From the NCBI GenBank assembly GCA_041389885.1, contig JAWKRB010000006.1:3101-67100 (forward strand): a DNA stretch of 64,000 nucleotides. The letters are read 5' to 3'. The translations under genes were made by a program, and so were the position numbers. A model generated the notes under the pieces. That model had not been told where the DNA came from and searched no databases. It saw only the letters and a program-made list of their open reading frames with translations. The stretch comes from Polyangiales bacterium (GTDB taxonomy: Bacteria; Myxococcota_A; Polyangia; Polyangiales; Ga0077539). Shown here in pieces: positions 1 through 10,903 of the stretch (positions within the stretch are counted from its first letter, which is position 1; every line of letters begins with the position of its first letter).

Positions 1-3000
1 GGGCAGCGGCGGGGGGGCGCGGGGCGGCGACGGGGGCACGCTCTCGCTCTGCCGCGCCTGCGGCGAGGCGATCATGCGCGCGAGGTCTTCGAGCGAACCC
101 TCCTCCACCGCGGGCTCCGGCGCGGGGAGGTCTTCGATGTCGTCGAGGGCGAGGTCGTCGTCGAGCATCTCGAGGTCGTCGGCGGGCTCGACCTCGAGGT
201 CGTCGTCGACCTCAAGGAGCTCCTCTTCTTCGTCGACTTCGAGCTCGGGCGTCTCCTCCACGGGCTCCTCCGCGGGCTCGAAGAACGCCAGCCTCGGATC
301 GGCGTGGGGCTCGGGCTCGGGCTCGGGCTCGGGCGAAGGCTCGAAGAACGCGACCCGGGGGTCGGACGGCGCCGCCGCGACGGGCTCTGGCGGCGGGACG
401 GCCTCGGGCTCCCAGGCCGGCGCGGCCTCGGGCTCCCAGGCCGGCGCGGCCTGGGGCTCGGGCTGAGGCGCGGGGACGGCGGCCGGGGGAGGGGCTTCGG
501 GCTCCAGCAGTTCGTCGTCGAGGTCTTCGACGGGGCGGTCGAGGCGCTCGAGGGCCTCGCGGGCCTCGGCGTCGTCGGGGGCGCCGCGGAGCACCCGGCG
601 CCACAGCTGTTTGGCCTCGTGCGAGTTGCGCAGGCGCTGCTCCCACACGCGGGCCATTCGGCGGAGGCACTCGGTGCGGTCACCGCCCGCCTCGAGCTCA
701 CGCTCGATGGCGATGAGCAGGTCCTGCCACCGGGAGGCGCGCTGGAGCAGCTCCTGCCAGCGACGGATCGCGTCGAGGTCCTTCGGCGCGATCTCGACGA
801 CCCGCTGCAGCGCCGCGACGGCGTCGTCGACGCGGTCGAGGTGCTCCGCGAGGATCGTCGCGCGACGCTGGGTGTACGCCCGCGCCACGGACGCCTCGTA
901 CGCCGCGTCGATGACCTTCTCATAGCGCGCGGCCACCTGATCGAGGCGACCCAGTCGCAGCCCGCACGCCTCGAGGGCGTCGGCGCCGAGCGCGTCGGAG
1001 GGCCAGGCCGAGACCGCGCGGAGGTAGAGCGTCCAGGCGTGCTCGTCGAGGCCCAGGTCGTCCGCGCAGAGGTCTCCGGAGCGTCGGAGCAGCAGCGCCG
1101 CGAGGCGCGGATCCTCGTCGACGCAGTCGTCGGCGCGCTGCGCCAGACGCTCGACCAGCGCGGTGAGCAGCCCCGCGTCGGGGGCGGCCGCGTCCGCCGT
1201 ACGAATCGCGTCGATGACCTGTCCCAGCCTGTTCTCGTCGGCTCCCCGCCGAGAGAACGCCAGCGCGACGGCCTGGGAGAGGTACTGCTGCGCGGTGGTC
1301 GCGTCCGCCGCGGCGACGGCGGCGGCCTCCATGGCGCGCAGGGTGATCGCGGTGAGCTCGTCGTCGTTCTGCGCCGTCTTCTTTCGGCGATCGAGGGCGA
1401 TGTAGAGGTCCTGCTCCCGGCCGCTGCCGGGGATCAGGCGGACCGCCGCGTCGAGGAGCTCGTCGTCGGCCGGCGCGCCCGCCAGAGCGCCGAGGCAGAG
1501 GTCCAGCGCCGCGCCGATCGCCCCGGCGGCGGAGAGCGCGCCGACGCCCTGCAGCGCCCGGTCGTGCGAGGACGTGGGGTCGGGCGCGCCCGCGACGGCG
1601 GCCTGCCACCCCTCGGCGGCGGCCTCGGGATGGGACGCGCGCGCGGTGAGCTCCGCGAGGAGCGCCACGGCGTCGTCCCGCTCGGGCGCCGCGCAGGCGG
1701 CGCGCACCGTCAGCGACAGCGCGGCGTCGACGTCGCCGAGCGTGGAGCCCGTGCGCCGCGCGACGTCGACGAAGAGCTCCGCGCGCGCCGCGTCGTCCTG
1801 CACCCGCTCGGCGAGGTCGGTGAGCAGCGGGACGAGCTGCGCGTCGTACCCTCGCCGCGTCGCGAGGTCTTGCAGCATCTGCACGCAGCCCAGGTCGCCG
1901 TTGCGCGCGAGGGGCTCCAGCAGGCCCCACGCCTCGCCGGGCGCGTCGAGGTGCGCGTCGAGGATCGCGGCGACGCGCATCGAGCACCGCCTCTTCCTCC
2001 TCGTCGCCCTCGACCTCGATGAGCTCCTGAGCAGCGCGACCGCCTCGTCCCAGCGGCCCATCGCCTCGGCGGCGTCGGCGACGCGCTGGGTGAGCACGAG
2101 GTCTCCAGGGTCGGCGTCGTGGCCCAGCCGCAGCAGCGAGAACGACAGCGTGGGGTCGTCGAGGGAGGCCTCGGCGAGGGCCAGCGCGCGGGCCGCAATC
2201 TCGCCGCGCGCGTCGTCGTCCTCGTCTGTGAGCCGCACCTGCCGCGCGAGCGCCTCGAGCACCAGGTCTCTGCGCGCCAGTGAGTTCGCGGTGATCTCGA
2301 GCACCGACCACGACTCGATCGCGTCGGGCGCCACCTCGCGCGCCACGTGCGCGAGCGCCTCGAGGCCCTCGTGCGACATGCCGAGACCGTCGATCATCAC
2401 CCTCGCGCGCCGGGTGAGCAGCGCCCTCCGCGCGTTGGCCGTGTCCGCCGCCGTCGAGGCCTCCTCGAGGAGCTGCGCCGCGCGCGCCAGGTCGCCGTCC
2501 CGCTCGGCGAAGCTCGCCAGCGCCTCGATCGCCTCGACGTCGTCGCGGAGGCCGTGTTGGGCCCGCAGTGCGCGCAGCTCTTGCCAGTACTGCACCGCCG
2601 CGGCGGGGTCGCTCGCGCCCATGACCTGCGCGGCGCGGCGCAGGAGGTTCGAGCGCTGCTCGAGCGCGAAGACCTGCTGCAGTCGGTCGTGCAAGAAGGC
2701 CACGAGCCGCTGGTGCTGCCCGAGGGCGTCGAGGGCGTCGATGATCGTCAGGGCGAGGGACTCGTTGGTCGGGTCCATCGCCACCGCGGCCTCGGCCTCG
2801 TCGAGGGCGGTGGCCGAGTCGCCGAGGAGCCGCGCCGCCGCGGAGGCCCGGGCGTGGAGCGCCGCGCGGGCCGGGCCGCGGGGCATCGAGCTCGCGCGCT
2901 GGCGGAGGCCGTCGAAGCGGGCCTGGTGCTCGCCCGCGGCGTCGAGCGCGCGGTCGAGGGCGTCGAAGCACTCGTCGCTCTCGGGGTCGAGCCGGAGCGC

Positions 3001-4689
3001 CTCTCGCAGGGCCTCGACCGCCGCCGGGTGCTGCCCCGCCGCCGCCCGCGCGTCGGCGAGCTCGCGCCACCGCTCGACCGCGACGTTCGGGGGGCTCTGC
3101 TCGGCGCGCACCTGGAGCACGTCGGCGACCTCGGACAGCGCGTCGCGGCCCCGGTAGAGCGCGATCAACCGGTCGCTCACCGCCTCGTCGCTCGGGTCTT
3201 CGCGCCACGCCTGCGCGACGCACTCGAGCTCCTGGTCGAGCTCGTCGAGCTGGTCGCGCGCGATGTCGGCGCGGCGGAGCAACAGCGCCTTGCGCTCGCC
3301 CTCCGGCAGCAGCGCGACCTGCTGCTCGATCACCTGAGCGAGCTCGGCCCAGGAACCCGCGCGGGTGAAGATCGCGTCGAGGCCTCGCAGCGCGTCGAGG
3401 TCGGTGGACGACACGTCGAGCAGCTCGCGGTACGCGTGCATCGCCGACTCGGGGTCGTCGAGGTGGTCGAGGGAGAGCGCCGCGATCTCGCGGAGCTTCG
3501 CGGAGCGCGTCTCGGGCGGGCAGTGCTCGCAGCGCACGGCCTCGGCCATCACCTCGCGGAGCTCGCCGTACTCGCCGCGCGCGCGCAGGTCGTCTTCGAC
3601 CAGCGCCAGGGCCTCGGCGTCGGCGGGGTCGAGCTGGAGGACCTCGCGCATGGACGCGAGCATCCCGGCGCGGTTGCCCTGGTTGCCGTACAGCTCCGCG
3701 AGCTCCTTGAGGTCGCGCACGCGCTCGGCGGGGTCTGCCGTGGGCGCGAATTGCGCGAGGAGCTGCGCGAGGTCGTCGGCGCGGCCCGCGGCGCGGTAGA
3801 GCCCCCCCAGCTCGCGGGCGACGTCGAGGTCGTCGGCCGCGAGGGGCTCGAGGCACGCGATGGCGTCGTCGAGCTGCCCGACCGAGGCGTACATCTCCGC
3901 GAGGCCGCGGCGGATGGTCGGCGCGTAGGCGCTGGTCGGGTTGGCGCCGAGGAAGGCGATCTGCCGCAGCGCGAGGTCTTGCGTGCGCCCGTCTCGGTAG
4001 TAGGCCTCGTGCACGATGGCGTAGGCGCTCTCGTCGCCGGCGAAGGCGTCGAGCGCCGCCTCCGCGAAGGCCAGGCCGTGCTCGCCGCCCACGTTCTGCG
4101 CGAGGGAGCCGAGCACCTGCGCCGCGTACATCGCGTCTTCGGGGCGGGCCTGCGGGCTCTGCGAGCGCGCGAGGTAGGCGCCGGCGAGCTCGCGGAGCAT
4201 CTCCCAGTCGTCGGGGGAGCCGGTCAGGATCTCGTCGATGTAGGCGATCTGCAGGTCCCAGTCGGGGATCTGCCCATAGATCTGAACGCCCTCGCGGAGC
4301 AGCAGGTTGCGCACCATCGGGTCGGCGGTCGTCGCGAGCTGCTCGGAGAGCAGCTGCGCCGCGGGTCGAAAATTGCCGAGCTGAATGAAGATCTGCCGCG
4401 CGGCCTCTGCGGCCTGGAGCTGCCCCGTGTCGAGCTCGAACGACCGCTTGTAGCAGGCCACGGCCTTGTCGGCCCGGCCCACGTTCTTCGACCAGAGCTC
4501 CCCCGCGCGAAAGTACAGGTCCGCCGCGGAGGCGGGGACGGCGCGGCGGGCCGCGGTCTGCTCCACGAGCTGCGCGAGCTGCTGGAATTCACCGCGGGCG
4601 CCGTGGTGTTCCCACAGAAGAAAGAGCGCCTCCGCATCGTCGGGGTTGCGGCTGAGACGCTCGTAGTACGCGTAGACAGCAGGGTCCAT
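1..4689 (-). CDS. Very large TPR/HAT-like repeat protein (>1560 aa, C-terminus beyond window start) with acidic Pro/Glu-rich repetitive tail
   Basis: Minus frame ending at coordinate multiples of 3; ATG at 4689..4687. Hand translation gives plausible repeat-protein text (e.g. ...LEAGGDRTECLRRMARVWEQRLRNSHEAKQLWRRVLRGAPDDAEAREALERLD...; ...AAVQYWQELRALRAQHGLRDDVEAIEALASFAERDGDLARAAQLLEE...) with GC3 near 95%. Absent from the ORF track because no stop lies inside the window. Listed ORFs 304..2022(+), 1574..3157(+), 920..3856(-), 2347..4700(+) are its shadows. Confidence 0.8.
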   Translation of the reverse strand, partial: MDPAVYAYYERLSRNPDDAEALFLLWEHHGARGEFQQLAQLVEQTAARRAVPASAADLYFRAGELWSKNVGRADKAVACYKRSFELDTGQLQAAEAARQIFIQLGNFRPAAQLLSEQLATTADPMVRNLLLREGVQIYGQIPDWDLQIAYIDEILTGSPDDWEMLRELAGAYLARSQSPQARPEDAMYAAQVLGSLAQNVGGEHGLAFAEAALDAFAGDESAYAIVHEAYYRDGRTQDLALRQIAFLGANPTSAYAPTIRRGLAEMYASVGQLDDAIACLEPLAADDLDVARELGGLYRAAGRADDLAQLLAQFAPTADPAERVRDLKELAELYGNQGNRAGMLASMREVLQLDPADAEALALVEDDLRARGEYGELREVMAEAVRCEHCPPETRSAKLREIAALSLDHLDDPESAMHAYRELLDVSSTDLDALRGLDAIFTRAGSWAELAQVIEQQVALLPEGERKALLLRRADIARDQLDELDQELECVAQAWREDPSDEAVSDRLIALYRGRDALSEVADVLQVRAEQSPPNVAVERWRELADARAAAGQHPAAVEALREALRLDPESDECFDALDRALDAAGEHQARFDGLRQRASSMPRGPARAALHARASAAARLLGDSATALDEAEAAVAMDPTNESLALTIIDALDALGQHQRLVAFLHDRLQQVFALEQRSNLLRRAAQVMGASDPAAAVQYWQELRALRAQHGLRDDVEAIEALASFAERDGDLARAAQLLEEASTAADTANARRALLTRRARVMIDGLGMSHEGLEALAHVAREVAPDAIESWSVLEITANSLARRDLVLEALARQVRLTDEDDDARGEIAARALALAEASLDDPTLSFSLLRLGHDADPGDLVLTQRVADAAEAMGRWDEAVALLRSSSRSRATRRKRRCSMRVAAILDAHLDAPGEAWGLLEPLARNGDLGCVQMLQDLATRRGYDAQLVPLLTDLAERVQDDAARAELFVDVARRTGSTLGDVDAALSLTVRAACAAPERDDAVALLAELTARASHPEAAAEGWQAAVAGAPDPTSSHDRALQGVGALSAAGAIGAALDLCLGALAGAPADDELLDAAVRLIPGSGREQDLYIALDRRKKTAQNDDELTAITLRAMEAAAVAAADATTAQQYLSQAVALAFSRRGADENRLGQVIDAIRTADAAAPDAGLLTALVERLAQRADDCVDEDPRLAALLLRRSGDLCADDLGLDEHAWTLYLRAVSAWPSDALGADALEACGLRLGRLDQVAARYEKVIDAAYEASVARAYTQRRATILAEHLDRVDDAVAALQRVVEIAPKDLDAIRRWQELLQRASRWQDLLIAIERELEAGGDRTECLRRMARVWEQRLRNSHEAKQLWRRVLRGAPDDAEAREALERLDRPVEDLDDELLEPEAPPPAAVPAPQPEPQAAPAWEPEAAPAWEPEAVPPPEPVAAAPSDPRVAFFEPSPEPEPEPEPHADPRLAFFEPAEEPVEETPELEVDEEEELLEVDDDLEVEPADDLEMLDDDLALDDIEDLPAPEPAVEEGSLEDLARMIASPQARQSESVPPSPPRAPPPLP
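307..334. repeat. (GGGCTC)n hexamer microsatellite, about 4.7 copies, inside the TPR gene tail
   Basis: Direct reading gggctcgggctcgggctcgggctcgggc; encodes (EP)n on the minus strand. Confidence 0.8.
401..472. repeat. 24-bp tandem direct repeat x2 plus one degenerate copy (gcctcgggctcccaggccggcgcg)
   Basis: Two perfect copies at 401-424 and 425-448, then a diverged third copy. Encodes AAPAWEPE repeats in the minus-strand TPR protein tail. Confidence 0.75.
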
Positions 4690-4794
4690 CCGGGCGCGCG
4701 GACGCTAACACGTTGCGACGAGCCGTTGTCTATTCTCCGCCGTACGGCCCGCGCCTGGCGCCGATCCCGATCCAGCGAGGCCCCGACCGACTTC

Positions 4795-6337
4795 ATGAAG
4801 CGCTTCGAGAAGATCCCCGACCCTTCGCCCGAGCTCCGGCGCCCGATGCGCCTGGGCGAGCTCTCGGTCGGCGCGGGCGCGGGCCTCTGCGTGATTCGCT
4901 GCCTCGACGCGCGCGGGGCGCTCGGCGCGCCGACGGTGCTCTCCGAGGGCCTCACGGGGCGAGGCAGCGACTCTCCGCGCGCGTCGCTGCGCTGGGACGC
5001 TGAGGCCGCGGACCTTCTGCTCCCTCCGCTCTCGGTGCACGAGCGGGCGCGGCTGCACCTGAGCCTCGGCGCGGCGGTCGAGCTCGTCGCGGCGCCGGGG
5101 CGGGTCACGGCGCTCGACCCTGGGGGCCGCAGCGTGCTGCTGCACCTGGAGGGCCAGGCCGGCGAGGGCGCTTTGCGGGTGCGCGTCGCCGACGCGGCGC
5201 GGTCGGTCTCGCTGCGCGTGCGAGCGCGATGGGACGAGTCTCCCGACGCGCTCGCCGCGATGGCCGACGAGGTCAGCCGCGCGCGGTGGTCGGCCGCGGT
5301 TCGCGACGAGGCGCTGCCCCTCACGGCGCCGGCGTCGCTGCGCGAGGGCGCGCGCCGCGAGGCCGCCGAGGAGCGCTTCGTGCTCTGGTCCCTCGCGCGC
5401 TTCGAGCCGTTGCGGCGGGCGATCGACGAGGTGCGCCGGGCCCCCGCGCCCGCGCTCACGGCGGAGGTGCGGGCGGTGCGGCTCGACGACCCCCGCGCGG
5501 GCGATTACCTCGCCGCGCGAGGGGTGAGCCCGTCCCTCGCGGCGCACCCCGAGCGGGGCGCTCGCGCGCGGACCGCGTCGCTGAGCTGGAGCACGCCCGA
5601 GAACCGTACGCTCCGAGCGTTCCTCGACGCGTTGCAGCGCCGCGCCGCGCGCCTCGACGGCGACGACGCCCTGCGCGGCGTCTTTCAGTCGTGGCGCGAC
5701 GAGCTCCCGTGGATCGAGCTCGTCCCTCCCCGCGACGAGCCCTCGCCCCCCCCCGCGAAGGCCGCGGGACCAGGTGATCGCGCGCTGCGCCGAGCGCCTC
5801 GAGCGGGCCGCGCCCGCGCTCTCCGACGGCGACTCGCGGGTCTCTCCCTGGAGCACCGCCGCCCTCTACGAGCGGTGGTGCGCGCTCGAAATCTGCCGCG
5901 CCCTGGGCCTGAGCGACGAGCACGGCGCGCGGCTGATGGCGGGCGCTGCGGTGCGCGCGCCGTGGCCGGGGGGCGCGCTGATCCTCGACGCCCAGCGCAC
6001 CGCGACGAGCCCCATGCCCCTCGCGCTGCGGCCCGACTTCACCCTCCGCGTGGGCGACCGCGCGGTGCACCTCGACGCGAAGTATCGCCTCGACCCGTCG
6101 ACCCGCGACGGAGGGTTCGTGCGCGACGAGCTGATCAAGATGCACGCGTACCGCGACGCGATCCCAGGGAGCGTCGGGGCCTACGCGCTCTTCCCTGGCG
6201 CGGCGGAGGATCGGATTGAAGGGCGAGACGCGCGGGGCGGCGTCGGGGCGCTCCCGCTGCGCGCCGAGCGCGACGAGGCCCTTCGTCGTGCGCAGCGCGA
6301 GGCGCTACGCGGCGTCCTCACAGAGCTCCTCGGGTGA
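4795..6337 (+). CDS. Orphan restriction-endonuclease-like protein: N-terminal domain of unknown function plus C-terminal PD-(D/E)xK nuclease domain (DUF2357/DUF524-like). Frame-disrupted at a C9 tract (5746-5754).
   Basis: ATG at 4795 (MKRFEKIPDPSPELRRPM...) in frame 1 reads plausible protein up to ...WRDELPWIELVPPRDEPSPPP; frame 1 then has no stop until 6219, and the rest is junk. Frame 2 from about 5744 reads ...RRPRDQVIARCAERLERAAPAL...YERWCALEICRAL...RPDFTLRVGDRAVHLDAKYRLD...DELIKMHAYRDAIPG..., ending at 6337. Motifs hLDAKY and KMHAYRD are typical of PD-(D/E)xK folds. One extra C in the run would fuse both parts into about 514 aa. Confidence 0.6.
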
Positions 6338-6380: not shown

Positions 6381-7247
6381 ATGAGCCCCCGTCACGCACC
6401 GATGCAGCGCCCGACCCCCGAACAACTCGCCCTGCTCTCGCCCGCGGAGCGCCGCTGGTTCCGCTTCGCCGACGCGATCAACCGTGACCCTCGACTGAAG
6501 GCGCCGGCCAACACGTTCCTCAAGGTCGTGGCGAAGAACTGGGTCTCGAAGTCGATCGGCAACCTCGCCCACTTCTACGGCCTGGAGCACCTGCGCGCCC
6601 TCCGCGCCGACCGCGGGGTCTTCGTCATCTCCAACCACCGGAGCTTCTTCGACTTCTACGCGATCTCGTCGGTGCTGCTCCGAGAGGTGCCCTCCATCGA
6701 GCGGATGTACTTCCCGGTCCGCGCGAACTTCTTCTACGAGTCGGCCCTGGGCAGCGCCGTGAACGGGCTGATGTCGGCCTGGGCGATGTATCCCCCCGTC
6801 ATGCGCGACGGCCCGAAGCGCGCCTTCAACGAGTACTCCGTGGCCTTCATCGAAGACGCCCTGGCGAAGCCGGGCACCTTCGTGGGCTTTCACCCCGAGG
6901 GCACCCGCGGCCGCGGCCCCGACCCCTACGAGCTGCTCCCGGCCAACATCGGCGCGGGCGCCATCGTGCACCGCGCGCGGCCCGTGGTGCTCCCGGTCTT
7001 CACGCTCGGGCTCATCAACGACCTGCCCCGGCAGGTGATCGGCAACTTCGACGGCACCGGCGCGCCCATCACCATGGTCTTCGGCGCGCCCCTCGATGTG
7101 CAGAGCTACCTCGACATGCCCGGCAAGCTCCGCACCTACAAGGCCCTCTCGGTCGCGATGCGCGACGAGCTCGTGCGGCTCTCCGGGGTCGAGCGCGAGC
7201 TCCGCGCCCGCGACGGGCTACCCGACCTCTCGCCGCCGTCGAAGTAG
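6381..7247 (+). CDS. Lysophospholipid/1-acyl-sn-glycerol-3-phosphate acyltransferase family protein (PlsC-like LPLAT)
   Basis: HX4D acyltransferase motif (NHRSFFD) and FPEGTR motif (FHPEGTRGRG); 288 aa. Confidence 0.85.
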   Translation: MSPRHAPMQRPTPEQLALLSPAERRWFRFADAINRDPRLKAPANTFLKVVAKNWVSKSIGNLAHFYGLEHLRALRADRGVFVISNHRSFFDFYAISSVLLREVPSIERMYFPVRANFFYESALGSAVNGLMSAWAMYPPVMRDGPKRAFNEYSVAFIEDALAKPGTFVGFHPEGTRGRGPDPYELLPANIGAGAIVHRARPVVLPVFTLGLINDLPRQVIGNFDGTGAPITMVFGAPLDVQSYLDMPGKLRTYKALSVAMRDELVRLSGVERELRARDGLPDLSPPSK

Positions 7248-10200
7248 GGCGAGCGCGAGCAACCACCCCGCGCCGAGCGCGCGCGGGCCCCCCGTCGCGT
7301 GGCATCCGCAGTCGCGCGCCACGGTCGTGCGCTGCGAGGCGCCCGCGTCAGCGTCTCGCGGCGGCGCGTCGGTGAGCGTGAGCGTCGCGGTCGCGCGGCC
7401 CACGTGGCCGGCCCCGTCTTCGGCCTCGGCGACGACCGTGTAGACGCCCGGGGGGACGAGGAGACGGGTGTCGTCGGCGGCGCCAGTCCACGACGCGCGG
7501 GTGGTGCGCGTGGGCAGCGGGGTGCGCAGGGTCTCGTCGTCGAGCACCGCGAGGGTCGCGCCGTCCGCGCCTTGCACCTCGGCGTGCGCGCGAGCGAGAC
7601 CGGTGAGGTCCTCGAAGCGGATCTCGACCTCGGCGCGCTCCCCCGCGCGAGGCGAGAAGCTCGGGGTCAGCACGTCGATGCGCACCGTCGGCGGCGACGT
7701 GTCGACCACGGTGAACCCGTCTGACAGGGTCTCGGGACCGCTGCCCTGGTCTGAGACCGGAACGACGCCGACGCGGTACCGCCCGCCCGCGCGCAGGGGG
7801 AGGCCGTCGACGCGCGCCGAGGTGCCCGACACCTCGACGTAGTCGGGGAAGCGCACCGCCGTGCCCGACGCCGTGAGCACCCGCACGTGGTAGCGCGCCG
7901 CCCCTGGGACCTCGCTCCACCGCGCGAACACCACGCTCGACGACTCGACCTCGTCGACGTCGTCGGCGCCGCCCTCGCGGTCGAGGTCGAGCACCTCGCG
8001 CACCGCGGGGAGCGTGCGCGGACCGAGGGCGTACAGGTACCCGTCACCGACGCTCACGAGCACCTCGTCGACGCCGTCGCCGTCGGTGTCGCCCACCACG
8101 GGCTCGCCAACAGGGTAGCGAAAGTCCAACGCCCACCGGAGGGTGAGGGCGCAGGCGTCGAGGGCGTAGAGGTGACCGTCGGTGCTGCCCACCAGCAGCC
8201 CGGGCGCCCCCGATCCGTCGAGGTCCGCGACGGCGGTGACGTTGGCGAAGGCGCCCCCTCGCGTGCCCTCGGGGAGCGGGGCGCCGGCCGCGAAGGCCCT
8301 GCCGCCGGCGAGCACCACGCTCGCCACGACGGCCTCGCTCGCGGCGCCCCCGCCGCTCGGGAGCCGCGCCGGCTCGATCAGCCGAAGCTCCGACGTGCCG
8401 ATGGGAGACGCCGCCACGCGCCTCGCCTCTCCGCAGCGCACCAGCGCGCCGTAGGGGCTCGTGAAGCTCGCGAGGTCAGCCTCGCCGACGAGGGACAGGT
8501 CGGCGCGGAGGAGGCGGTCGGGGCGCGAGGCCGCCGAGGTGAAGACCTCCAGGCCCTGTCCGCGAAAGGGCGCGAGGATCTGCACGCTGTACGGGGCGTT
8601 GGGGCCCGTAGAGAGCACCCGCCCGTCGCCGCCGTCGACGAGGTGCATCACGGTCGCGGCGAAGACCAGGTCCTCGCCGCCGTCGCCGTTGAGGTCGCCC
8701 ACCGAGAGCTGCCCGAAGGCGCTGTTCGTGCCGCGGGTGAGGTCGTTCCACCGCAGCGCGCCGTCGCGGGCGCGGAGCACCACGGGACGCACCTGCACGT
8801 TGGGATCGCCCCGGAGCAGCGCGAGCTGCTGGCTCCCGTCCGCGAGTCGCAGCGGCAGCGCGTCGCCCACGATCGACGAGCCGCGGGGCGCGACGTCGCG
8901 CGCCGTCCACAGGGCCGAGCCGTCGCGGAGGTCGAGGCCGAGCACGTCGCGCCCTTCGAGCGCCGCGGCGTCGAGGTCGCCGTCTCCGTCGAGGTCGAGC
9001 AGGGCGGGGTACGCCGCGCGGGGGCGGCTCCAGCGCGCGCGCGGCGGCGCCGAGAGCGACGCGGCGCGGGCGTCGAGTCGCACCAGCGCGGGGCGCGCGT
9101 CGCGCACCAGGATCGCGGGCTCGCGCGCGGCGTCGAGGGCGGCGATCACGGGGGTGTGACCGAGCACGGCGCTGCCTGAGAAGTACCCGCCGACGCGCAT
9201 GCCGGGCACCGTGAACTCGGCGGTGACGATGCGGTTCGTCGAGGTCATCTCGCGGTCGAGGGCGAGGAGGTAGCCGTCCGAGGTGACGGCGACCGGCTGC
9301 GCGTAGGGGCGCGAGAGAGAGGCTCCCCACGAGGTCGTGAGCACGGTGGTGCCCGCGGGCGCGTCGAGTCGCCCGAGGCGGCGGAGCCCGTCGGCGCCGA
9401 CGTCCCAGGCCTCCAGGCTGGTGACCACGCGCTGCTCGGGGGGCAGGTCGGGGTCGAAGGGCGCGAGGATCAGCTCGGCGCCCGGGTCGTCGTCCAGCGC
9501 CACGAGGAGCGGGCCCACCGCGACGCGCTCACGCGCCGCGCGGTCGAGGTCGAGCGCGCGTGCAGGGCGCCGGCCCTCCACCGACCACCGCGGCGCCCAG
9601 GCGCCCGACTCCCACCGGAGGATCACCGTCGCCCGGTCGCCCTCGACGGTGATGGCCTCGGGGCGACCGTCGCCGTCGACGTCTCGAATCCCCACCAGCT
9701 CGGCGTCGGAGCGACGCGCGCGGAGGGCGCCGGTGCGCGCGTCGCGGGTCTCCAGCCCCCAGCGCCGCGCGACGCCGTCGTAGAATGAGAACGTGACCTC
9801 GGCCGCGCCGTCTCCGTCGAGGTCGCTCACGCTCAGGTCTTCGAAGCTCACCGAGCCCGTCGCGCGGTCGGGCCCGTTGGCCTCCCACAAGAGCCTGAGC
9901 GAGCGCCGCCCGGCCTCGACGACGTGGTCGAAGACCGCGACGCGCCGCGCGCCGAAGGGGGTCTGCCCCGCGGAGTACCCGTTGGTCACCACGACGAGCT
10001 CGAGGCCAGGGTCTCCGTCGACGTCGCGGAGCAGGGGCGTCGAGAAGGTGCCGAAGAGCCCCGAGGCCGGCGCGCGGAGGTCGATCGCGAGGCTCCCGGT
10101 GCGCCCGTCGAACACGCGCATGTGGTCGTGGCCGAGGGCCATCACCACCTCGGGCGCGCCGTCGCCGTCGAGGTCGCCGATGACATCGCCGACGGTGCCG

Positions 10201-10843
10201 CAGGCGTCTGGCAGGGGGGCGATGCGCCAGAGCTCTCGCGGGCTGGCGAGCCCGGGACCGAAGGAGAACGCCAGCGCGGCCACGGGGTTTCGCACGCACT
10301 GGCCGACGTAGAGCTCGTCCCGCCCGTCGCCGTCGAGGTCGCCGACGCGGAGCTGTCCGCCGAGCCCGCGGAGCGCCGCGGGCACCTCCCAGCGCACGCG
10401 CCCGTCGCCGCCGCTGAGCACCAGCACGTTGCCCCGGTCGGCCGTGACCACCACCTCGCGGGCGCCGTCTCCGTCGAGGTCGGTGATCGCCGAGAGCGTC
10501 CGGGCGTCGACGAGGGGCGACTCCACACCAGGGTGTCGTCGGCGTGCTTGGCGACGACGCGCCCGGCGGAGACGAAGACCACGTCGGTCACGCCGTCGCG
10601 GTCGATGTCGGTGAGCGCGTATTGCTGCGCGCCGAGGGCGCCGCCGAGGTAGTGCCGCCAGCGCACCGTCGCGGACGGGAGGTTCACGCGCCCGGCGCTG
10701 AGGCCGGTGCGCTGCGGGTCGTGCCGCGAGACCCGCCAGTCGTCGGCGCGCGTCGCTCGCGCGTAGAGCGCGAGGACGGTGAACGCCCACGCGTGCGTGG
10801 CTCGAGGTGGACGCGTCATGTCGCGGTGAGAATGTACGCCCAC
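7218..10843 (-). CDS. Large secreted FG-GAP/VCBS-repeat protein (about 1200 aa) with MYXO-CTERM-like C-terminal sorting tail; frame-disrupted near 10520-10531
   Basis: N-terminus with signal peptide (MTRPPRATHAWAFTVLALYARATRA) in the frame of ORF 10142..10843 reads sensibly to ...KHADDTLVW. The body then continues in the frame of ORF 7218..10790 from ...VESPLVDARTLSAITDLDGDGAREVVV... Many DxDGDG FG-GAP units. C-terminus is ...RDCGCHATGGPRALGAGWLLALALLRRRREVG. A single missing nucleotide around 10521-10531 explains the frame change. Confidence 0.75.
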
Positions 10844-10903
10844 GCGCGCGCAGACGGCGCGCTTCTTGAGCGCGAGCGGGTTCGCGGCCTACGATCCGCC
10901 GCC

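What the first reader, a model, noticed from the sequence alone, without database searches (positions are those of the whole stretch)
4795..6337. Orphan PD-(D/E)xK restriction-endonuclease-like gene, frame-disrupted at a C9 homopolymer
The C-terminal half carries a clear PD-(D/E)xK pattern (E in ERWCALEICRAL; PDFTL...HLDAKY; KMHAYRDAI). This follow-up motif is characteristic of restriction/defence-type nucleases, which usually pair with McrB-like GTPases or other partners. Here the gene sits alone between a giant TPR protein and a PlsC acyltransferase, and its reading frame breaks exactly at ccccccccc (5746-5754). It could be a relic of a defence module, a phase-variable gene, or an intact solo nuclease obscured by a sequencing indel.
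Basis: partly seen in the sequence, partly recalled or inferred. Interest (0 to 1): 0.55.

Follow-up and report, generated by a model that had tools for sequence, protein, structure and literature searches.

The report
McrB-less McrC-type nuclease, one-base frameshift
This is a single gene for a restriction-type (McrC-family) DNA-cutting enzyme from a myxobacterial lineage that never carries the usual motor partner next to it, and its reading frame is broken by one extra C in a run of C's, which is most likely an assembly error or a very recent mutation.

Summary
A + strand gene (ATG 4795, TGA 6335-6337) changes frame at the C9 run 5746-5754. It is collinear with 14 intact homologues, and the closest (84% identical) reads CCCCCTCC at that site.

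The protein belongs to the McrC family (DUF524/PDDEXK_7 plus a DUF2357-like finger). All PD-(D/E)xK motifs are intact, and solved McrC structures are the best structural matches.

Distant relatives nearly always have a McrB-like AAA+ gene directly upstream. This gene belongs to a monophyletic Myxococcota (mostly Polyangiales) clade of 20 loci that never does. Most of these sit just upstream of a PlsC-like acyltransferase, and some have a FIST gene fused on in front. This argues against a recently decayed defence module.

The long C run exists only in this genome, so a conserved phase switch or programmed frameshift is unlikely. Nothing has decayed downstream of the break. A second one-base indel breaks the neighbouring FG-GAP gene. 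The sequence matches a Polyangiales MAG record.

I favour an assembly indel (about 0.55) over a genuine recent null mutation (about 0.35). Interest is modest.

The parts
4795..5753 (+). 5' part of the nuclease gene in frame A (codons 1-319, plus the start of codon 320). It encodes the N-terminal beta-sandwich 'scaffold' (aa 18-143, 4846-5223) and most of the helical finger domain (from aa 150, 5242).
   Evidence: GC3 phase; collinear alignment with 14 intact homologues; AlphaFold2 model; weak Pfam DUF2357 hit at aa 192-287, E 0.004, below the cut-off.
5746..5754 (+). C9 homopolymer, one C too many. The site of the +1 frame break.
   Evidence: The orthologue L001 has CCCCCTCC (8 nt) and an intact frame. 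No other orthologue has a run here. It is the longest homopolymer in the window.
5756..6337 (+). 3' part of the gene in frame B (R321 to G513, then TGA). It holds the end of the finger domain and the PD-(D/E)xK nuclease domain (aa 354-512, 5855-6331). Catalytic codons: E359 5870-5872, D414 6035-6037, D427 6074-6076, K429 6080-6082, MHAYRD 6140-6157.
   Evidence: Pfam PF04411 at aa 409-469, E 3.1e-10, 40.8 bits against a cut-off of 22.1. These residues are conserved in 81 of 81 family members. hhalign pairs D414/D427/K429 with E. coli McrC D244/D257/K259. The public record annotates 5774-6337 as a 187-aa 'nuclease domain-containing protein'.
6381..7247 (+). PlsC-like acyltransferase, 44 nt downstream on the same strand. 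It is the conserved downstream neighbour of this nuclease clade.
   Evidence: Pfam PF01553, E 1e-10. Present directly downstream in 13 of 19 related loci, at 58-95% identity. No terminator-like site lies between the genes.
1..4689 (-). Giant TPR protein (more than 1563 aa, runs off the window), transcribed divergently from the nuclease gene.
   Evidence: Pfam TPR families. The same divergent neighbour is in L001-L004 and L009.
7218..10855 (-). FG-GAP repeat giant gene, convergent with PlsC. It carries a second single-base indel: one G is missing from a GGG at about 10521-10523.
   Evidence: tblastn of the intact 1214-aa L002 orthologue switches from frame -1 (aa 1-112) to frame -3 (aa 112-1189) at 10520-10523. 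DNA alignment; Pfam.

Best explanation
Positions 4795-6337 are one gene, not two. It encodes a 513-aa McrC-family endonuclease with three parts: an N-terminal beta-sandwich scaffold, a helical 'finger' with a beta stalk (DUF2357-like), and a C-terminal PD-(D/E)xK domain (DUF524/PDDEXK_7).

It belongs to a vertically inherited Myxococcota (mostly Polyangiales) clade that has no McrB-like AAA+ gene beside it. Instead it usually sits directly upstream of a PlsC-like acyltransferase.

Inferred mechanism: metal-dependent phosphodiester cleavage by E359, D414, D427 and K429, probably as a dimer as in McrC. Cleavage would be licensed either by an AAA+ ring encoded elsewhere, docking on the retained finger, or by the protein acting alone. 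Only the fold and the residues are shown here.

The frame break is one extra C in a C8 run. That run arose in this lineage by a synonymous CCT to CCC change. I judge it most likely a consensus or assembly indel in the metagenome-assembled genome the window matches, so the real gene would be intact. It is not a conserved regulatory device.
For: One gene: the GC3 phase switches at the run with no stop codon. Fourteen homologues of 496-571 aa are collinear across the junction, and R321 just after the run is invariant. L001 encodes the identical [17 protein letters not shown] with CCCCCTCC.

Partner-less clade: a McrB-like AAA+ gene lies directly upstream in most of the 66 distant loci, but in none of the 19 close loci nor in the window. 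The 20 orphan genes are monophyletic in a neighbour-joining tree. PlsC synteny holds in 13 of 19.

Recent or artefactual break: dN/dS is 0.31 downstream against 0.22 upstream. Window-specific changes at conserved columns are 4 upstream and 4 downstream. A second 1-nt indel lies in the adjacent FG-GAP gene. The window's 187-aa fragment is identical to NCBI MEZ4389885.1 from a Polyangiales MAG with a 356-kb contig.
Against: No reads are available, so an assembly error is not demonstrated. Two frameshifts among roughly 45-50 genes is also within the range of real pseudogene content. The sequencing platform of the MAG is unknown to me.

One window-specific replacement (R423A) hits a column conserved 9/9 in close homologues. 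That could be early decay.

The DUF2357 sequence hit is below Pfam's cut-off, and the hhalign match to E. coli McrC is weak (E 0.02, 22 columns). The finger assignment therefore rests mainly on the predicted structure. 'No partner' is shown only for +/-8 kb of each locus and for 64 kb here, not for whole genomes. The tree is a quick neighbour-joining tree with uncurated start codons.
Confidence: 0.55

Rival explanations
1. The extra C is real. Replication slippage in the new C8 run produced a very recent null allele (an early pseudogene or a strain-level polymorphism). It yields 320 native residues followed by 154 out-of-frame residues.
For: C8-C9 runs are prone to slippage, and this is the longest run in a genome that otherwise avoids them. 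The frameshift is in the public record as well. R423A is a window-specific change at a conserved column. The neighbouring FG-GAP gene is also broken, so local gene loss is conceivable.
Against: There is no excess of window-specific substitutions downstream of the break (4 vs 4) and dN/dS stays well below 1. The coding GC3 signal is intact downstream (0.96). Two independent fresh frameshifts, and no other damage, in two conserved adjacent genes is what indel-type consensus errors produce.
Confidence: 0.35
2. The C run is a phase-variation switch (contingency locus) that turns the nuclease on and off by slipped-strand mispairing.
For: The run length (9) is in the hypermutable range, and restriction-type genes are often phase-variable in other bacteria (own knowledge).
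Against: The run is not conserved. L001 has CCCCCTCC and the other 11 orthologues inspected have no run at this site. The gene is syntenic and vertically inherited among housekeeping-type genes, not in a variable island. No other contingency-type tract was seen in the window.
Confidence: 0.05
3. The full-length protein is made from the C9 sequence by programmed +1 ribosomal frameshifting on CCC codons or by transcriptional slippage.
For: CCC-C is a known +1-prone context for tRNA-Pro (own knowledge). The frame needed is +1.
Against: No stimulatory element is present. The zero frame runs on for 154 codons with no nearby stop or pause. All orthologues encode the protein in one frame, so recoding is not conserved.
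Confidence: 0.03
4. It is the decaying remnant of a McrBC-type defence module that recently lost its McrB gene.
For: The wider family is almost always paired with a McrB-like AAA+ gene (PMC1913061, PMC11090510). This copy is both partner-less and frameshifted.
Against: The partner is missing from all 20 members of a monophyletic clade spanning 31-84% identity, while every catalytic residue remains invariant. The gene order with PlsC, the TPR giant and the FG-GAP giant is conserved. PADLOC gives no hit. Any partner loss is therefore ancient and was followed by purifying selection.
Confidence: 0.05

Closest known systems
McrC of McrBC Type IV restriction systems (E. coli and Thermococcus gammatolerans; PDB 6hz4, 6ut6, 6ut5)
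   Different: There is no sequence-level similarity to solved McrC chains. No McrB-like GTPase gene is adjacent, nor anywhere in 64 kb. The neighbours are housekeeping-type genes rather than restriction or defence genes.
DUF524 / PDDEXK_7 (PF04411, COG1700) plus DUF2357 (PF09823) proteins paired with COG1401 McrB-like AAA+ ATPases
   Same: This is the direct sequence family. It shows motif I Glu, motif II PD, motif III DAK and motif IV MHxYRD, with an all-beta then alpha-helical N-terminal region, exactly as described in PMC1913061. The finger residues P217, R242 and E269 are shared with paired members.
   Different: Paired members (e.g. Mycobacterium, Actinoplanes and Pontibacter loci) have the AAA+ gene ending at the nuclease start and are often about 750 aa. 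This clade is about 500-530 aa and unpaired. N270, the finger residue most conserved in paired members (59/61), is relaxed here (15/20).
CoCoNuT CnuC (McrC homologues with added domains; Bell et al. 2024, PMC11090510)
   Same: Both are McrC homologues with a beta-sandwich N-terminal domain ahead of DUF2357 and a PD-(D/E)xK domain.
   Different: No coiled-coil insertions, cold-shock domain or zinc ribbon were detected here, and no CnuB/McrB or other CoCoNuT genes are present. It is not a member of that group.

Membership tests
PD-(D/E)xK nuclease, DUF524/PDDEXK_7 family (PF04411) | Profile match above the curated threshold | tested here: met
   E 3.1e-10, 40.8 bits against a cut-off of 22.1, aa 409-469.
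PD-(D/E)xK nuclease, DUF524/PDDEXK_7 family (PF04411) | Motifs I (E), II (PD), III (DAK) and IV (MHxYRD) intact (PMC1913061) | tested here: met
   E359, P413-D414, D427-A428-K429 and M449-H-A-Y-R-D454 are all present. They are conserved in 81/81 aligned family members.
PD-(D/E)xK nuclease, DUF524/PDDEXK_7 family (PF04411) | Restriction-endonuclease-like fold | tested here: met
McrC protein family | N-terminal DUF2357 finger domain (helical bundle plus beta stalk) that docks in the McrB ring | tested here: inconclusive
   The Pfam PF09823 hit is below threshold (E 0.004, 16.8 bits against 23.3). Precomputed PF09823 hits exist for clade members P0009-P0013. The model shows a bundle plus stalk (E220-227, E257-264), and Foldseek aligns 365 columns to E. 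coli McrC at E 1e-6. Docking itself is not testable here.
McrBC-type two-gene restriction system | Adjacent McrB-like AAA+ GTPase/ATPase gene | tested here: not met
   An HMM of 53 partner proteins gave no hit at E <= 1 in the window or in the 19 clade loci, while the positive controls scored 1e-110 to 1e-156. tblastn gave the same result.
McrBC-type two-gene restriction system | NTP-dependent cleavage of modified DNA | not testable with these tools
   This needs biochemistry.
Known anti-phage defence systems (PADLOC models) | Match to a defence-system protein model | tested here: not met
   No PADLOC family matched at E <= 1. NCBIfam also gave none.
Phase-variable contingency gene | Homopolymer tract retained in orthologues or strains | tested here: not met
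   The tract is interrupted in L001 and absent at this site in the 11 other orthologues inspected.
Phase-variable contingency gene | Mixed tract lengths in a population | not testable with these tools
   No reads are available. Two metagenome scans found no conspecific copy.
Programmed frameshift gene | Shift site and stimulators conserved in orthologues | tested here: not met
   All orthologues are in a single frame. No stop follows the site for 154 codons.
Pseudogene | Further lesions or relaxed constraint beyond the first disruption | tested here: not met
   dN/dS is 0.31 downstream against 0.22 upstream. Window-specific changes at conserved columns are 4 and 4. There are no stops in frame B.

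The most novel reading that the evidence does not exclude
The Polyangiales clade may be a McrC-derived nuclease that has been freed from McrB altogether and taken into a chromosomal, non-defence role. In this reading it is controlled by other partners: a translationally coupled FIST sensor protein in one branch, and co-transcription with a PlsC-like acyltransferase in most branches. It would be a stand-alone descendant of a motor-dependent restriction nuclease.
Probability: 0.3. Interest if true: 0.55.

Novelty: new variant of a known kind. Interest (0 to 1): 0.3.

Why it matters
McrC nucleases are understood as strictly dependent on the McrB motor. This clade keeps every catalytic residue and most finger motifs over long evolutionary distances with no motor gene nearby. 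That raises two possibilities: McrC-type nucleases can work with a partner encoded elsewhere, or they can work without one. The clade is a reasonable target for biochemistry and for defence-system catalogues that count only paired genes. There is also a practical point: the public annotation of this MAG calls only the last 187 codons a gene, which is probably an annotation casualty of a one-base indel. The frameshift itself is probably not biologically meaningful.

Tried and rejected
- NCBIfam and PADLOC scans of the fused protein gave nothing.
- Sequence searches of the PDB with the protein and with the family profile gave only noise.
- An exact look-up of the 187-aa fragment in the contig index failed twice. 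I therefore could not fetch the source contig or its wider genome.
- A DNA pattern scan of metagenome contigs for C8-C10 alleles of this tract found nothing.
- The protein-based metagenome scan confirmed no relative. No same-species allele is available.
- The genome-collection scan holds no genome closer than 52% identity.
- The minus-strand ORFs overlapping the region (4224-5459, 4705-5856, 5456-6145) were rejected as artefacts of 74% GC. The codon-position GC pattern and all homology point to the + strand.
- The 1290-aa ORF 2347-6219 is likewise an open-frame artefact.
- I considered a FIST or McrB homologue elsewhere in the window; none was found.
- A first tree run timed out and was redone with faster settings.

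Full report
1. The observation

The window has 74% G+C, so long open frames occur on both strands and ORF lists alone are uninformative. Codon-position GC resolves the region.
- From about 4740 to 5700 the GC-rich third position corresponds to the frame that starts at ATG 4795.
- From about 5750 to 6270 it corresponds to the +1 frame, which ends at TGA 6335-6337.
- The change falls on the C9 run at 5746-5754.
- No stop codon marks the change. The first frame stays open to 6219.

C9 is the longest homopolymer in the 64 kb. The genome avoids such runs: 10 runs of 7 or more, against about 77 expected from composition.

Joining the frames needs one C fewer (or two more), and gives 513 aa.

2. One gene, not two

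A database search with the fused protein returned 14 proteins of 496-571 aa that cover 89-99% of it in most cases. The best is 84% identical. In the alignment the junction is collinear. The 84% relative reads [17 protein letters not shown], exactly as the C8 version does, and the arginine right after the run (R321) is invariant.

The relative's DNA reads TCG CCC CCT CCG CGA where the window reads TCG CCC CCC CCC GCG A. So this lineage first made an uninterrupted C8 by a synonymous T-to-C change and then acquired a ninth C. Eleven further orthologues have no run at this site and all are intact.

3. What the protein is

Sequence evidence:
- Pfam gives PDDEXK_7 (PF04411) above threshold in the C-terminal half.
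- It gives a sub-threshold DUF2357 (PF09823) match in the middle.
- They are conserved in all 81 family members I aligned.

Structural evidence comes from an AlphaFold2 model (pLDDT 80, pTM 0.77). It shows:
- a beta-sandwich at aa 18-143;
- a helical bundle carrying a two-stranded stalk with a small helical tip, aa 150-340;
- a nuclease domain at aa 354-512.

This is the scaffold/finger/nuclease plan described for Thermococcus gammatolerans McrC (PMC7680126). Structure searches agree:
- Foldseek's only significant PDB hit is E. coli McrC in the McrBC complex (E 1e-6, 365 columns).

A weak profile alignment places D414, D427 and K429 on E. coli McrC D244, D257 and K259. The structure paper names D257 and K259 among the active-site residues whose mutation impairs cleavage. 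That D244 completes the catalytic triad is from my own knowledge. Bell et al. 2024 treat PF04411 and PF09823 as the two McrC domains (PMC11090510).

4. Context here and elsewhere

Window gene order:
- TPR giant (-), divergent from the nuclease gene;
- nuclease (+);
- PlsC-like acyltransferase (+), after a 44-nt gap with no terminator-like site;
- FG-GAP giant (-);
- ADP-ribosylglycohydrolase;
- a LigA-like ligase;
- a Ser/Thr kinase.

The same order is found around the 84% and 51-52% orthologues.

Context varies at greater distance:
- At 31-36% identity the acyltransferase is still directly downstream. In five loci a FIST_C-domain gene abuts or overlaps the nuclease start.
- Seven further Myxococcota loci have other neighbours.

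In the 66 more distant loci (Mycobacterium, Actinoplanes, Pontibacter and others), most carry a roughly 390-aa AAA_5-like ATPase directly upstream. This is the expected McrB-like partner. Those lacking it mostly have the gene at a contig end.

A profile of 53 of these partners finds nothing in the window or in the 19 close loci, while the controls score 1e-110 or better. In a neighbour-joining tree the 20 partner-less genes form one clade that excludes all paired genes.

The absence of a partner is therefore old and clade-wide. It coexists with complete conservation of the active site. Finger residues are mostly kept (P217, R242 and E269 in 20/20). N270, the finger position most conserved in paired members (59/61), is relaxed to 15/20.

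5. The frame break: artefact, mutation or device

Nothing else is wrong with the gene:
- Frame B has no stops and full coding GC3.
- dN/dS against the 84% orthologue is 0.22 upstream of the break and 0.31 downstream.
- Substitutions unique to the window at conserved columns number 4 upstream and 4 downstream.

So the break is either very recent or not real.

A scan of the whole window for same-strand phase switches without a stop codon found only one other case. The FG-GAP gene two genes away lacks one G of a GGG relative to its intact orthologue. This splits residues 1-112 from the rest. The next three syntenic genes are unbroken.

An exhaustive protein search returned a 187-aa protein identical to window 5774-6337. 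It is NCBI MEZ4389885.1, 'MAG: nuclease domain-containing protein [Polyangiales bacterium]', from a 356,633-bp contig. The window therefore matches a metagenome-assembled genome, and the frameshift is in the deposited sequence.

Two isolated one-base indels in otherwise well-preserved neighbouring genes of a MAG look more like consensus errors than two independent fresh inactivations. I cannot see the reads or the platform, so I put this at about 0.55, against 0.35 for a real recent mutation.

A conserved phase switch or programmed frameshift is unlikely. Neither the run nor any recoding signal is shared by orthologues.

6. How it probably works

Shown:
- the fold;
- the intact catalytic residues;
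- the McrC-like domain plan;
- the absence of an adjacent motor gene;
- the conserved synteny.

Inferred: metal-dependent nucleic-acid cleavage by the E/D/D/K site, probably as a dimer as in McrC. The retained finger could still engage an AAA+ ring encoded elsewhere, or it could have been re-used. I cannot decide between these from +/-8 kb of context.

The tight FIST coupling in one branch and the PlsC linkage in most branches hint at a non-defence, chromosomal role. They do not establish one.

7. Verdict

The gene is a new variant (partner-less, vertically inherited) of a known kind (McrC/DUF524 nucleases). The frameshift is probably not biology. Interest is modest (0.3). The more novel reading is a motor-independent, domesticated McrC descendant. 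I give it about 0.3 probability.

Noticed in passing
window 10520-10523 (minus-strand gene 7218-10855): A second single-base indel. The FG-GAP giant gene lacks one G of a GGG compared with its intact 1214-aa orthologue in L002. Residues 1-112 are therefore in a different frame from the rest.
   Followed up: yes
L005 2115-3275; also L010, L011, L013, L014: In one branch of the partner-less clade, a roughly 386-aa FIST_C-domain gene abuts or overlaps the nuclease start (a 4-nt overlap in L005). This suggests a different partner in place of McrB. No FIST homologue is present in the window.
   Followed up: partly
L003 7942-9073 and 9094-11565, compared with L002 7869-8999 and 9020-11485: In the JGI contig L003 the ADP-ribosylglycohydrolase gene and the following 821-aa gene are split into several ORFs, whereas in the near-identical L002 they are whole. 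Indel-type breaks also occur in related metagenome assemblies.
   Followed up: no
window, whole 64 kb: Homopolymer runs are strongly depleted: 10 runs of 7 or more bases against about 77 expected from base composition. Only one run is longer than 8.
   Followed up: partly
window 6062-6064 (codon 423): Ala replaces an Arg that is conserved in 9 of 9 close homologues, four residues before the catalytic D427. It is the only window-specific change at a fully conserved column.
   Followed up: no
L016 4445-5800: An N6/N4 DNA methyltransferase gene lies two genes upstream of the partner-less nuclease. I scanned this upstream neighbour by Pfam in L016 only; the corresponding gene in the related L018 locus was not scanned.
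   Followed up: no
window 5774-6337: The public record (NCBI MEZ4389885.1, Polyangiales MAG, 356,633-bp contig) annotates only the last 187 codons, from an internal GTG, as a 'nuclease domain-containing protein'. It evidently misses the 5' two-thirds of the gene.
   Followed up: partly
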